This document shows positions 6,001 through 9,000 of a stretch of 21,752 nt of DNA, piece by piece (position 1 is the stretch's first letter; each line of letters starts with the position of its first letter). This stretch comes from a virus (Duplodnaviria; Heunggongvirae; Uroviricota; Caudoviricetes), in the IMG/VR virus record IMGVR_UViG_2529292985_000022. One strand, written 5' to 3'. A program made the position numbers.

Positions 6001-9000
6001 GATTTGGCCGCCGCCTCAGCCTGTATGTGAACACGGCAGCGGAAGCCATCCGGGCGCTGTCGTTACAGGTGCCGGGCTTTCGCCGTCAGATGAACGAAGG
6101 CTGGTACCAGATACGTATTGCCGGTTATGACACGGCACCGGAGGCGGTGTACGCCCGTCTTCACGAACAGCTGGGTGAGGGAACGGTCATCCATATTGTG
6201 CCGCGACTGGCCGGGGCCGGAAAGGGTGGACTGCAGATTGTGTTGGGGGCGGCAGCCATCGTGGGCTCTTTCTTCACTGCCGGGGCATCAATGGCGTTAT
6301 GGGGTTCAGCCCTGGCAGCCGGTGGTTTTTCTGCCACCACGATGCTGTTTTCACTTGGAGCCAGCATGATTCTGGGCGGTGTGGCCCAGATGCTGGCCCC
6401 GAAGGCAAAAACACCGGATTACCGCGCAACGGATAACGGCAGACAGAACACGTACTTTTCCTCGCTGGATAACATGATTGCCCAGGGGAACCCGATGCCG
6501 GTGCCTTACGGGGAAATGCTGGTTGGCTCCCGCCGTATATCCCAGGACATCAGCACCCGTGATGAAGGCGGGGGCGGAACGGTCGTGGTTATCGGGCGAC
6601 AGGGATAAAACATAAAAAAATCCCGCAGTGATCGCGGAGCTGCGGGGACAGACAAATGAAGATCAATGTTAAGGAGTTGTTTTTGTTACTCGGGCAAAAA
6701 AACACTAACGCAGCGAAATTATAAGCGCCACAGTCAGTGTGTGAAAATGTGAAGATATTCAGAAATTTTATTCCGTCATGACGCAGGCACCCGGTGAGGT
6801 GCCTGTTGTTTTTGTGAGTGAACAATTATCACGGTAAGAGGTGATGTAATGGGCAAAGGTGGCGGCAGGGCGCACACACCGCGTGAGGCGAAAGACAATA
6901 TCAAATCCACGCAGATGATGAGCGTGATTGATGCGATTGGTGAGGGACCGATAGAAGGCCCGGTGAAAGGCCTGCAGAGTATTCTGGTGAACAAAACCCC
7001 GCTGACGGACACGGACGGTAATCCCGTGATACACGGTGTGACCGCGGTCTGGCGTGCCGGGGAGCAGGAGCAGACACCACCGGAAGGCTTTGAGTCCTCC
7101 GGCTCTGAAACCGGACTGGGCGTGGAAGTGACGAAGGCAAAACCGGTGACGCGCACCATTACGTCCGCGAACATTGACCGCCTGCGGGTTACCTTCGGGG
7201 TGCAGTCACTGGTGCAGACCACGTCAAAGGGCGACCGTAATCCTTCCTCTGTCCGGATTCTGATTCAGTTACAGCGTAATGGCCGCTGGGTGACGGAAAA
7301 GGACGTCACCATTAACGGCAAGACCACCTCACAGTTCCTGGCCTCGGTGATTCTGGATAATCTGCCTCCCCGGCCCTTTAACATCCGGATGGTCAGGGAG
7401 ACGGCGGACAGCACCACGGACCAGCTGCAGAATAAGACGCTGTGGTCGTCATACACCGAAATCATCGATGTGAAACAGTGCTACCCGAACACGGCCATTG
7501 TGGGGCTGCAGGTGGATGCGGAGCAGTTCGGCGGCCAGCAGATGACGGTGAACTACCATATCCGCGGTCGCATCATCCAGGTGCCGTCAAACTATGACCC
7601 GGAAAAACGCACGTACAGTGGTATCTGGGACGGCAGTCTGAAACCGGCATACAGCAACAACCCGGCCTGGTGCCTGTGGGACATGCTGACTCACCCGCGC
7701 TACGGCATGGGAAAACGTCTGGGGGCGGCGGATGTGGACAAGTGGGCGCTGTATGCCATCGGGCAGTACTGCGACCAGACGGTCCCGGATGGTTTCGGGG
7801 GGACCGAGCCGCGGATGACCTTTAATGCGTACCTGGCACAACAGCGTAAGGCGTGGGACGTTCTCAGTGATTTCTGCTCTGCGATGCGCTGTATGCCGGT
7901 ATGGAACGGTCAGACGCTGACGTTCGTTCAGGACCGCCCGTCGGATGTGGTGTGGCCGTACACCAACAGCGATGTGGTGGTGGATGATAACGGCGTGGGA
8001 TTCCGCTACAGCTTCAGTGCCCTGAAGGACCGGCACACGGCGGTGGAGGTGAATTACACCGACCCGCAGAACGGCTGGCAGACCTCCACGGAACTGGTGG
8101 AAGACCCGGAAGCCATACTGCGCTACGGACGCAACCTGCTGAAGATGGATGCGTTTGGCTGTACCTGCCGCGGTCAGGCTCACCGTGCAGGTCTGTGAGT
8201 GATAAAGACCGGACTGCTGGAAACGCAGACGGTGGACTTCACGCTCGGGTCACAGGGGCTGCGTCACACACCGGGTGACATTATTGAAATCTGTGATAAC
8301 GACTATGCCGGGACTATGACCGGCGGACGTGTCCTGTCCATTGATGCTGCCACCCGCACCCTGACGCTGGACCGTGAGGTTACCCTGCCGGAGACAGGTA
8401 CATCGGCGGTGAACCTGATTAACGGCAGCGGTAAGCCGGTGAGTGTGGACATCACCGCACACCCCGCGCCGGACCGGATACAGGTCAGTACCCTGCCTGA
8501 TGGTGTGGAGACATACGGGGTGTGGGGACTCTCCCTGCCGTCACTGCGCCGTCGCCTGTTCCGCTGTGTCTCCGTCCGGGAAAACACGGACGGCACCTTT
8601 GCCATCACGGCGGTGCAGCACGTACCGGAAAAAGAAGCCATCGTGGATAACGGTGCCCGCTTTGAGCCGCAGTCAGGCTCCCTGAACAGCGTCATCCCAC
8701 CGGCAGTGCAGCACCTGACGGTGGAGGTGAGCGCAGCTGACGGCCAGTATCTGGCACAGGCGAAATGGGACACGCCGCGGGTGGTGAAGGGGGTGCGCTT
8801 CAGTCTGCGACTGACCAGCGGAAGCGGAGAAGACAGCCGTCTGGTGACCACCGCTATCACTGCGGATACAGAGCATCGTTTCAGTGGCCTGCCGCTCGGG
8901 GAATACACCCTGACAGTCAGGGCAATTAACAGTTATGGCCAGCAGGGCGAACCGGCCACCACCACCTTCCGGATTAACGCGCCAGCAAAACCCGCCACCA

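What the first reader, a model, noticed from the sequence alone, without database searches (positions are those of the whole stretch)
6609..6848. About 240-bp insert between tail genes I and J carrying a promoter-plus-terminator bounded candidate small RNA
In lambda, I and J abut; here they are separated by ~240 bp. On the minus strand there is a near-consensus sigma70 promoter (-35 TTCACA, 16 nt, -10 TATAAT; plus-strand 6718..6745), followed ~100 nt downstream by a GC-rich hairpin (6622..6646) and a 7-nt U tract. That is a self-contained transcription unit with no long ORF, the architecture of an Hfq-type sRNA. Lambdoid prophages of pathogenic E. coli are known to encode regulatory sRNAs, although I cannot place this one. 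Alternative reading: a 22-codon plus-strand micro-ORF (approx 6656..6724, MKINVKELFLLLGQKNTNAAKL) preceded by GGGGA.
Basis: seen in the sequence. Interest (0 to 1): 0.7.

Follow-up and report, generated by a model that had tools for sequence, protein, structure and literature searches.

The report
Known prophage small RNA PasB

Summary
Tail gene I ends at 6608 and J starts at 6849. On the minus strand the 240-bp spacer carries a near-consensus promoter (-35 6745-6740, -10 6723-6718), a 7-bp G+C hairpin (6646-6640 / 6628-6622) and a U7 tract (6620-6614).

This is the pasB gene. Window 6560-6899 aligns at 99.1% to E. coli E2348/69. There, Pearl Mizrahi et al. 2021 (PMC8550237, Table S6) place PasB on the minus strand at 1466343-1466261, which is window 6696-6614 (83 nt). 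Their northern probe is present verbatim at 6619-6641.

Published data show PasB is Hfq-dependent and has 37 RIL-seq partners. The window allele differs at one base (RNA position 27, window 6670), the position where Zhu et al. 2026 say PasB-2 differs. It is identical in 847 of 5,426 complete E. coli genomes.

New here:
- Complementarity to eight published partners converges on RNA positions 22-43, and the SNP lies inside that region.
- The cassette belongs to a family of at least 54 variants at the I-J junction. They share an upstream block and a nearly invariant UUAAUCUUC, and some phages carry 2-3 cassettes in tandem.
- The 22-codon ORF is not conserved.

Verdict: already known, low to moderate interest.

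The parts
6027..6608 (+). Tail assembly gene I (3' neighbour of the cassette). The stop codon TAA is at 6606-6608.
   Evidence: ORF list. The homologous CDS in E2348/69 is annotated 'tail assembly protein', 582 nt. The start at 6027 is inferred from that length.
6614..6696 (-). PasB small RNA as published: 83 nt, 5' end at 6696, 3' end at 6614.
   Evidence: Table S6 of PMC8550237 gives NC_011601.1 minus strand 1466343-1466261. The coordinate offset of 1459647 comes from the 99.1% match (H11). The alignment shows 82/83 identity. The northern probe AATCCCGCAGTGATCGCGGAGCT is found at window 6619.
6614..6620 (-). U7 tail of the intrinsic terminator, the expected binding site for the proximal face of Hfq.
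   Evidence: Sequence. Table S5 lists a longest U tract of 7 for pasB.
6622..6646 (-). Terminator hairpin with a 7-bp stem, CCCGCAG (6646-6640) paired with CUGCGGG (6628-6622).
   Evidence: Scan and single-sequence fold. It is the only helix in the RNAalifold consensus of 45 distinct variants, and 2 sequences carry a compensatory G-C to A-U change.
6654..6675 (-). Proposed pairing (seed) region, RNA positions 22-43: UCCUUAACAUU (variable half, 6675-6665) plus GAUCUUCAUUU (conserved half, 6664-6654).
   Evidence: The longest perfect complementarity to published RIL-seq partners falls here: fabR 11 bp, rpoS 10, ler 9+8, ydbJ 9, hflX 7, yrdD-smg 7. 4 of 8 partners have a run of at least 9 nt against 1 of 70 control windows, Fisher p = 2e-4. 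UUAAUCUUC is nearly invariant in the family.
6670..6670 (-). Single-base difference from E2348/69 PasB: RNA position 27 is A here and C in EPEC. It lies inside the variable half of the seed.
   Evidence: Alignment. Zhu et al. 2026 state that PasB and PasB-2 differ at position 27. The change shortens fabR pairing from 11 to 6 nt and ler pairing from 9 to 8 nt.
6697..6711 (-). Predicted 5' extension of the primary transcript (GCGUUAGUGUUUUUU). The predicted start is G6711, 7 nt after the -10.
   Evidence: Position relative to the -10. G at +1 and GCGUUA are invariant or nearly so in 54 variants. No 5'-end mapping is available, and the published 5' end is 6696.
6718..6723 (-). -10 hexamer TATAAT.
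   Evidence: Scan. Among 54 distinct variants the hexamer is TATAAT in 26, AATAAT in 17 and TATCAT in 6, and it sits at a fixed distance from the upstream block in 51 of 54.
6740..6745 (-). -35 hexamer TTCACA with a 16-nt spacer. Only its TT is conserved across the family.
   Evidence: Scan and alignments.
6746..6764 (.). Conserved block upstream of the promoter, AATGTGAAGATATTCAGAA. It contains a CRP-like site TGTGA-N6-TCAGA at 6748-6763, centred about -44.5 from the predicted start.
   Evidence: It is the most conserved stretch in the BLAST-derived alignment of 19 spacers. It matches TGTGAN6TCACA with 1 mismatch and is the only such site in the window, against 0.8 expected by chance. In phage L201 each of the three tandem cassettes has its own copy. 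Its function is inferred, not shown.
6783..6815 (+). Plus-strand hairpin (6783-6806) followed by a T-rich run, just upstream of J. This is the ancestral I-J spacer element, not part of the PasB cassette.
   Evidence: Scan. Lambda's 60-bp I-J spacer has an analogous hairpin CCGCCTGCGGGCGG + TTTTGT. One stem position occurs as C-G, U-A and U.G (10 copies), with C.A in 2 copies. Loci L005 and L007 replace it with an unrelated hairpin and T run.
6849..10322 (+). Tail tip gene J (5' neighbour of the cassette on the operon strand), interrupted by an in-frame TGA at 8196-8198. Its ribosome-binding site AAGAGG is at 6836-6841.
   Evidence: The two halves match NCBIfam lambda_TipJ profile positions 1-449 and 451-1163. 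Translation. The codon is TGG in E2348/69 and TGA here.

Best explanation
The spacer holds pasB, an autonomous small-RNA gene (a 'moron') inserted between tail genes I and J of a lambdoid prophage and transcribed against the late operon.

Shown elsewhere for the near-identical E2348/69 allele:
- An RNA of about 83 nt accumulates from this locus.
- It needs Hfq for stability.
- It is the second RNA in 99-100% of its Hfq chimeras, as base-pairing sRNAs are.
- It is linked to 37 partners, mostly coding regions and 5' UTRs. These include ler, perB, bfpB/I, map, rpoS, fabR, hflX, ftsZ and tolC.
- It is more abundant in overnight static LB than in DMEM.

Shown here from sequence:
- A sigma-70 promoter (-35 6745-6740, -10 6723-6718), a largely unstructured body, and an intrinsic terminator with U7 (6646-6614).
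- A pairing region at RNA positions 22-43 (window 6675-6654). Its 3' half (GAUCUUCAUUU) is conserved across the family, and its 5' half (UCCUUAACAUU) varies.

Inferred:
- In the lysogen, host RNA polymerase transcribes PasB while the late operon is silent.
- Hfq binds the U tail and presents the single-stranded seed to host and virulence mRNAs, changing their translation or stability.
- The window allele (A27, apparently PasB-2) keeps the conserved half-seed but should pair less well with the fabR and ler sites that use C27.
- The conserved block at 6746-6764 is probably a binding site for a host regulator that sets when PasB is made.
For: Identity:
- 99.1% match of window 6560-6899 to E2348/69 1466207-1466546, in the same I-J context.
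- Published PasB coordinates, strand, length and probe.
- 82/83 identity, with the probe present in the window.

Hfq dependence and sRNA behaviour (published):
- Main text.
- Table S2, delta-hfq against wild type: log2FC -6.79 (padj 2e-40) and -2.39.
- Table S5: U tract 7; 37 interactions, 30 of them with CDS or 5' UTR; 258 chimeric fragments under activating and 1820 under non-activating conditions; fraction as RNA2 1.0 and 0.987.
- Partner lists.

Anatomy:
- Promoter and terminator scan.
- The consensus structure is the terminator alone, with one compensatory pair.

Seed:
- The sum of longest complementary runs to 8 partners is 66, against 54 +/- 2.8 for shuffled sRNA (0 of 300 shuffles reach it).
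- 4 of 8 partners have a run of at least 9 nt, against 1 of 70 control mRNA windows (p = 2e-4). 7 of 8 best runs fall in the same 26-nt stretch.

Conservation and spread:
- The exact 83-nt allele is present in 847 of 5,426 complete E. coli genomes.
- 54 distinct cassette variants share the -10, the +1 G, GCGUUA, UUAAUCUUC and the terminator.

Moron status: lambda lacks the cassette.
Against: - No expression data exist for the strain this window comes from.
- The published 5' end (6696) lies 15 nt downstream of the start predicted from the promoter (6711). So either the RNA is processed, or the coverage-based estimate is imprecise, or the promoter assignment is off.
- No regulatory outcome has been demonstrated for any PasB target. 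Zhu et al. state that the function is not elucidated, and Pearl Mizrahi et al. report a common target motif for only three of the five Pas sRNAs, with none shown for PasB.
- My seed analysis used only 8 partners, chosen for narrow coordinates, and ungapped perfect matches. rplX and gshA show no convincing site.
- The RNA's fold energy is not unusual (z = -1.1).
- There is no Rfam family to test against.
Confidence: 0.9

Rival explanations
1. PasB mainly acts in cis. Being fully complementary to the I-J intercistronic part of the late tail mRNA, it would pair with that mRNA during lytic growth, triggering RNase III cleavage or altering J translation. Alternatively, convergent transcription would interfere with the late operon. 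On this view the trans partners are secondary. It is not exclusive of the main explanation.
For: - Orientation antisense to the operon.
- The position between I and J is strictly conserved in all variants and in free phages.
- The cassette is kept in phages that form plaques, for example the PhiR phages propagated on E. coli C and K-12.
Against: - The RNA ends 6 nt after the I stop and more than 150 nt before the J ribosome-binding site, so it covers no translation signal.
- RIL-seq recovered it almost only with trans partners: 30 of 37 are CDS or 5' UTR of other loci.
- It is expressed in lysogens, where the late operon is off.
- Lambda assembles tails without it.
- In this window J is already a pseudogene, yet the cassette is intact.
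Confidence: 0.15
2. The functional product is the 22-residue plus-strand peptide MKINVKELFLLLGQKNTNAAKL (6656-6724), translated from the late mRNA.
For: - The ORF exists, with a GGGGA 8 nt upstream.
- One phage record (PhiR12_1) annotates a 33-codon 'hypothetical protein' at the same place.
Against: - The ATG is present in only 23 of 45 distinct variants. The others have ACG or lack the codon.
- Reading frames and lengths differ, and the peptides diverge after about 9 residues.
- Indels in the region are not multiples of three.
- The conserved part of the ORF coincides with the complement of the sRNA seed.
Confidence: 0.03
3. The cassette in this particular prophage is a silent relic. The prophage is defective (J has a nonsense codon), and the sRNA gene persists only because too little time has passed for it to decay.
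For: - J carries TGG to TGA at codon 450.
- No expression data exist for this strain.
Against: - Promoter, start region, seed and terminator are all intact.
- The 83-nt allele is identical in 847 complete genomes, which argues for maintenance.
- The near-identical allele in E2348/69 is expressed.
Confidence: 0.05

Closest known systems
PasB (pathogenicity-associated sRNA B) of EPEC E2348/69 prophage PP6; Pearl Mizrahi et al., Sci Adv 2021 (PMC8550237); distribution in Zhu, Shabalina & Storz, bioRxiv 2026 (10.64898/2026.05.13.724894)
   Same: Same locus (between tail assembly gene I and tail tip gene J), same strand relative to the operon, 82/83 identical bases, and the same terminator and U7 tract. 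The northern probe sequence is present.
   Different: One base differs, at RNA position 27 (A here, C in E2348/69). Zhu et al. name that position as the PasB / PasB-2 difference. I could not see their variant table, so 'PasB-2' is an inference. By my analysis the change lies in the pairing region.
PasA, PasC, PasD1/D2 (other Pas sRNAs of EPEC prophages) and their EHEC homologues EcOnc13, EcOnc51/52
   Same: They are prophage-encoded, Hfq-associated, intergenic, have an intrinsic terminator with a U tract, and were found in the same RIL-seq study.
   Different: They have unrelated sequences and sit near the lysis and sialate-esterase genes or Q, not in the tail operon. Zhu et al. describe PasB's neighbourhood and spread as distinct: usually single copy, commoner outside enteric pathovars, and conserved in synteny.
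AgvB and AsxR, anti-sRNAs of EHEC O157 prophages (Tree et al., Mol Cell 2014, PMC4104026; Rfam RF02702, RF02703)
   Same: They are prophage morons that produce Hfq-binding RNAs acting on host regulatory networks.
   Different: They lie at the moron site downstream of PR' and Q, and they act by sponging the core sRNAs GcvB and FnrS. PasB has 0 sRNA partners of 37 in Table S5. There is no Rfam hit in the window.
Protein-coding morons of lambdoid phages (e.g. lom and bor of lambda; concept of Juhala et al. 2000, cited in PMC4104026)
   Same: An autonomous promoter-gene-terminator unit sits between two genes that are nearly adjacent in a related phage. It is expressed from the repressed prophage.
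   Different: The product is a non-coding RNA, and the unit points against the flanking operon.

Membership tests
PasB sRNA | Sequence match to the published 83-nt RNA (NC_011601.1 minus strand, 1466343-1466261) | tested here: met
   82/83 identical, with the single difference at position 27.
PasB sRNA | Published northern probe AATCCCGCAGTGATCGCGGAGCT is complementary to the RNA | tested here: met
   The probe is found verbatim on the plus strand starting at window 6619.
PasB sRNA | Located inside the phage structural operon, between tail assembly gene I and tail tip gene J, on the opposite strand | tested here: met
PasB sRNA | [quoted passage not shown] | tested here: met
   A 7-bp stem and U7.
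PasB sRNA | The transcript accumulates and depends on Hfq | not testable with these tools
   Published only for the E2348/69 allele: northern blot, and delta-hfq log2FC of -6.8 and -2.4.
Hfq-dependent trans-acting base-pairing sRNA (class) | Single-stranded seed complementary to multiple mRNA partners | tested here: met
   Complementarity to 6 of 8 published partners converges on positions 22-43. It is enriched over shuffled sRNA (0 of 300) and over control mRNA windows (p = 2e-4). Regulation of those partners has not been shown.
Hfq-dependent trans-acting base-pairing sRNA (class) | Measurable effect on target translation or stability | not testable with these tools
   No reporter or knockout data were found. 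Zhu et al. say the function has not been elucidated.
Phage moron | Own promoter and terminator, and absent from the same junction in a related phage | tested here: met
   Promoter and terminator. Lambda's I-J spacer is 60 bp and lacks the cassette.
Small protein / micro-ORF | Start codon and reading frame conserved among homologues | tested here: not met
   The ATG is present in 23 of 45 variants, and the peptides diverge after about 9 residues.
CRP-activated class II promoter | TGTGA-N6-TCACA site | tested here: inconclusive
   9 of 10 core bases match at 6748-6763. It is the only such site in the window, but 0.8 are expected by chance. It is conserved across variants, although the viral set was selected with this motif.
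CRP-activated class II promoter | Site centred at -41.5 from the transcription start | tested here: not met
   The centre is at 6755.5 and the predicted start at 6711, which gives -44.5. The start itself has not been mapped.
Any Rfam family | Score at or above the gathering threshold | tested here: not met
   0 hits in the whole window. The best sub-threshold hits are chance-level terminator look-alikes.

The most novel reading that the evidence does not exclude
PasB may be one allele of a much larger, modular family of sRNA cassettes that occupy the I-J junction of lambdoid phages.

- All members share a host-regulator binding site (AATGTGAAGAnnTTCAGAA) at a fixed distance upstream of the -10.
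- All share a near-invariant pairing core, UUAAUCUUC.
- Next to that core is a rapidly diversifying second half-seed that retargets each allele. For example, the C27A change in this window would weaken pairing with the virulence master regulator ler and with fabR.
- Some phages stack two or three such cassettes in tandem.

The published surveys, which searched with the 83-nt E2348/69 sequence, describe PasB as showing only a few nucleotide differences and being mostly single copy. They would therefore have missed most of this diversity, including the 5-11 divergent matching places per genome in O157:H7, O111 and other STEC strains.
Probability: 0.4. Interest if true: 0.45.

Novelty: already known. 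Interest (0 to 1): 0.22.

Why it matters
PasB is among the most connected accessory-genome sRNAs in EPEC. Its Hfq partners include ler, perB, bfp genes, map and rpoS, so it may tie prophage carriage to virulence and stress regulation.

For the scan, the result shows that reading raw sequence can recover a real, experimentally validated sRNA gene that RefSeq leaves unannotated ('none' under every match) and that Rfam does not hold.

The additions made here give concrete hypotheses for a still function-less sRNA:
- a seed assignment,
- a seed SNP that separates the common allele from the studied one,
- a conserved promoter-upstream element,
- a wider cassette family with tandem arrays.

None of these changes the classification.

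Tried and rejected
1. Rfam: no family reached threshold in the window or in related loci.
2. AgvB/AsxR identity: rejected, because those lie at the PR' moron site.
3. EcOnc10-12 of Sakai as I-J homologues: EcOnc12 lies next to the Rz endopeptidase gene, not in the tail region. I could not establish whether Tree et al. detected the I-J sRNAs.
4. Global RNAduplex of PasB against partners gave unrealistically long duplexes and no information. I replaced it with ungapped perfect-match runs and controls.
The range outside Escherichia was therefore not tested here.
6. Micro-ORF: rejected.
7. A promoter that would start transcription at the published 5' end (6696): none is present, since the sequence 7 nt upstream is TTAGTG.
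8. A plus-strand promoter using the conserved block as its -35: there is no conserved -10 at the right distance in either downstream module type (by eye).
9. LexA-box (CTG-N10-CAT) and Cra/LacI-type palindrome (TGAAnAnnTTCA) readings of the conserved block were considered from memory of the consensus sequences. Neither could be tested.
10. A 5' stem-loop (U run pairing with A run) appears in the single-sequence fold, but the family consensus does not support it.
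Full report
**1. What is in the sequence.**
Tail assembly gene I ends with TAA at 6606-6608, and the tail tip gene J begins with ATG at 6849 (J identified by NCBIfam lambda_TipJ). The 240 bp between them contain no ORF of note.

On the minus strand the consensus scan finds TTCACA (6745-6740), a 16-nt spacer and TATAAT (6723-6718), which is 11 of 12 consensus positions. About 65 nt downstream of the predicted start at 6711 it finds a hairpin with stem CCCGCAG/CUGCGGG (6646-6640 / 6628-6622), followed by seven U (6620-6614).

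Motif counts alone are not above chance in this 2.5-kb stretch: 2 promoter-like sites against 1.1 +/- 0.9 expected, and 4 terminator-like sites against 1.7 +/- 1.3. The case therefore rests on comparison and on published experiments.

**2. Identification.**
Window 6560-6899 matches E. coli O127:H6 E2348/69 (NC_011601.1) at 1466207-1466546 with 99.1% identity. It sits in the same place, between 'tail assembly protein' and 'phage attachment tail tip protein J' of a lambdoid prophage.

A literature search led to Pearl Mizrahi et al. 2021 (PMC8550237). They used Hfq RIL-seq in that strain and named five prophage sRNAs PasA-D2. Their Table S6 gives PasB as NC_011601.1, minus strand, start 1466343, end 1466261, 83 nt, prophage PP6, with northern probe AATCCCGCAGTGATCGCGGAGCT. 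With the offset from the BLAST match, PasB corresponds to window 6696-6614 on the minus strand. The probe is present verbatim at 6619-6641, and 82 of the 83 bases are identical.

The single difference is at window 6670, which is RNA position 27 (A here, C in E2348/69). Zhu, Shabalina and Storz (bioRxiv 2026) state that PasB and their variant PasB-2 differ by one nucleotide at position 27, and that the E2348/69 sequence is not the commonest variant. In line with that, the exact 83-nt sequence of the window occurs in 847 of 5,426 complete E. coli genomes, and a further 78 have 95-99% identity. I did not see their variant table, so calling this allele PasB-2 is an inference.

No RefSeq record annotates anything here, and Rfam 15 has no matching family.

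**3. What is known about PasB.**
- Northern blots confirmed the size and showed Hfq-dependent stability.
- PasB was higher under the 'non-activating' condition (overnight static LB at 37 C) than in DMEM at mid-log.
- In their DESeq2 table the ratio of delta-hfq to wild type is log2 -6.79 (padj 2e-40) in DMEM and -2.39 in LB.
- Table S5 lists a longest U tract of 7 and 37 distinct interactions (0 with sRNAs, 30 with CDS or 5' UTR). It records 258 chimeric fragments under activating and 1820 under non-activating conditions, and PasB is the second RNA in 100% and 98.7% of chimeras.
- Partners include ler, perB, bfpB, bfpI, map, ftsZ, galE, rplX, fabR, hflX, gshA, tolC 5' UTR, raiA 5' UTR, ydbJ 5' UTR, yhhX and the start of rpoS.

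No regulatory outcome has been reported. Zhu et al. say the function is not elucidated.

**4. Where it pairs.**
Pearl Mizrahi et al. show a common target motif for PasA, PasD1 and PasD2 but none for PasB. Zhu et al. proposed a seed only from conservation, 'just upstream of the terminator'.

I fetched eight partner regions with narrow RIL-seq coordinates and looked for ungapped perfect complementarity to the non-terminator part of the RNA. The best matches converge on RNA positions 22-43, UCCUUCACAUUGAUCUUCAUUU:

| Partner | Perfect pairing |
|---|---|
| fabR | 11 bp (AAUGUGAAGGA) |
| rpoS | 10 bp (AAAUGAAGAU) |
| ler | 9 bp (UGUGAAGGA) plus 8 bp (AAUGAAGA) |
| ydbJ | 9 bp (UGAAGAUCA) |
| hflX | 7 bp |
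| yrdD-smg | 7 bp |

The summed longest runs (66) exceed all 300 shuffles of the sRNA (54 +/- 2.8). Four of 8 partners have a run of at least 9 nt, against 1 of 70 control mRNA windows taken from this window's genes (Fisher p = 2e-4). Seven of 8 best runs fall in the same 26-nt stretch, against 31 of 70 controls. rplX and gshA show nothing convincing.

In window coordinates the pairing region is 6675-6654. The position-27 difference lies in its 5' half. With the window's A, the fabR run drops from 11 to 6 nt and the ler run from 9 to 8 nt, falling back on ler's second site. Sites that use the 3' half are unaffected. The common allele may therefore have a partly different target set from the one studied. 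This is a computed inference.

**5. The micro-ORF.**
The plus-strand ATGAAGATCAATGTTAAGGAG... is the complement of that pairing region. Among 45 distinct variants, only 23 have the ATG. The rest have ACG or lack the codon, and the peptides diverge after about nine residues with differing lengths. I reject a coding role.

**6. The wider family and the promoter.**
BLAST of the spacer finds matches in 1,825 of 5,426 E. coli genomes and 147 phage records. Many are only 72-84% identical, and some genomes have up to 11 matching places, for example 5-7 in the listed O157:H7 strains and 7-9 in O111:H8 and other STEC strains.

Aligning 19 such spacers, and then 54 distinct cassettes that include IMG/VR contigs, shows a common plan:
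- the terminator, with one compensatory G-C to A-U pair in two sequences;
- a nearly invariant UUAAUCUUC (UUGAUCUUC in this window);
- a variable stretch 5' of it;
- a U run;
- an invariant G followed by CGUUA at the position expected for +1;
- a -10 of TATAAT (26), AATAAT (17) or TATCAT (6);
- the block AATGTGAAGAnnTTCAGAA (window 6746-6764) at a fixed distance from the -10 in 51 of 54.

The -35 itself keeps little more than TT. RNAalifold predicts no conserved structure other than the terminator, as expected for an sRNA with a long open pairing region.

The conserved GCGUUA and U run lie upstream of the published 5' end (6696) but downstream of the predicted start (6711). No promoter fits a start at 6696. 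The likeliest reading is that a primary transcript of about 98 nt is trimmed to about 83 nt, or that the coverage-based estimate is short. This needs 5'-end mapping.

The upstream block contains TGTGA-N6-TCAGA, which matches 9 of the 10 core bases of the textbook CRP site. It is the only such site in the window, though 0.8 are expected by chance. It is centred at about -44.5, not the canonical -41.5. Higher PasB in static overnight LB than in DMEM is compatible with CRP, but equally with stationary-phase control. I regard a host-regulator site as likely and CRP as one candidate. The IMG/VR set was selected with this motif, so only the BLAST-derived set speaks to its conservation independently.

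**7. What is insert and what is ancestral.**
Lambda's I and J are 60 bp apart, not abutting. That spacer holds a plus-strand hairpin CCGCCTGCGGGCGG followed by TTTTGT.

The window has the analogous plus-strand hairpin and T run at 6783-6815. One stem position in it occurs as C-G, U-A, U.G (10 copies) and C.A (2 copies), which fits a plus-strand RNA structure slightly better. Some relatives (L005, L007) replace everything from about 6774 onward with unrelated sequence that again has a hairpin and T run.

So the PasB cassette proper is 6609 to about 6774, and it behaves as a moron inserted upstream of an older spacer element. Some phages carry two (L151, L171, L216) or three (L201) cassettes in tandem. 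The second type has a different terminator and a body containing ACCUCCUUAAGGUGAC, and none of these is in Rfam.

**8. Rivals.**
A cis-antisense role on the late mRNA cannot be excluded, because PasB is fully complementary to the I-J intercistronic RNA. However, it covers no translation signal, its Hfq partners are almost all trans, it is expressed in lysogens, and lambda does without it. The micro-ORF reading is rejected. A silent relic is unlikely given the intact signals and 847 identical copies.

**9. Verdict.**
The feature is the already published sRNA PasB, so it is 'already known'. The seed mapping, the seed SNP, the conserved promoter-upstream block, the divergent multi-copy family and the tandem arrays go a little beyond the two papers. 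They are hypotheses from sequence, not findings that change the classification.

Noticed in passing
window 8196-8198 (within J, 6849-10322): The tail tip gene J is interrupted by a single in-frame TGA at codon 450, where E2348/69 has TGG (Trp). The two halves match lambda_TipJ profile positions 1-449 and 451-1163. The prophage probably cannot make functional tails, unless this is a sequencing error.
   Followed up: yes
window 14705-16753, minus strand: A host hydrolase gene (NCBIfam PRK11440) is split into an N-terminal part (16466-16753) and a C-terminal part (14705-15040) by an IS110-family transposase ORF (15079-16275).
   Followed up: partly
window 17030-20697: The right end of the window is host chromosome: aspS (17030-18802), nudB (18863-19372), yebC (19401-20141) and ruvC (20173-20697). 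The prophage therefore ends before about 16.9 kb. A dinI-like gene lies at 14102-14350 on the minus strand. No complete E. coli genome covers more than 74% of the window in one place, so the prophage is mosaic.
   Followed up: partly
window 6783-6815 (+); lambda NC_001416 15445-15504 (L267 846-905): A plus-strand hairpin followed by a T-rich run sits just upstream of J in this prophage, in lambda and (with unrelated sequence) in relatives such as L005 and L007. A terminator-like element inside the late operon therefore appears to be a conserved feature of the I-J junction. Its role is unknown: it could be a processing or stability element, or insulation of J in the lysogen.
   Followed up: partly
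L151:9750-10300, L171:1540-2080, L216:3950-4500, L201:4350-5110 (IMG/VR contigs): Some phages carry two or three sRNA cassettes in tandem between I and J. The second cassette type has terminator CUCCCG...CGGGAG and a body containing ACCUCCUUAAGGUGAC, which resembles the 3' end of 16S rRNA. There is no Rfam match.
   Followed up: partly
window 6746-6764: The block AATGTGAAGATATTCAGAA is the best-conserved part of the whole spacer. It keeps a fixed distance to the -10 in 51 of 54 cassette variants, while the -35 between them varies. It is CRP-like (TGTGA-N6-TCAGA) but centred at about -44.5. The regulator has not been identified.
   Followed up: partly
L024 (NC_011601.1 3102336-3102545): The RIL-seq partner listed as 'nlpD.E2348C_3010.IGR' is the start of rpoS, which RefSeq annotates as frameshifted in E2348/69. 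PasB has a 10-nt perfect match (AAAUGAAGAU) there.
   Followed up: partly
window 11048-12613: The tail fibre ORF downstream of lom (10390-10989) has a long collagen-like Gly-X-Y region. It matches the Scl/Lcl collagen-like adhesin models below their cut-offs.
   Followed up: no
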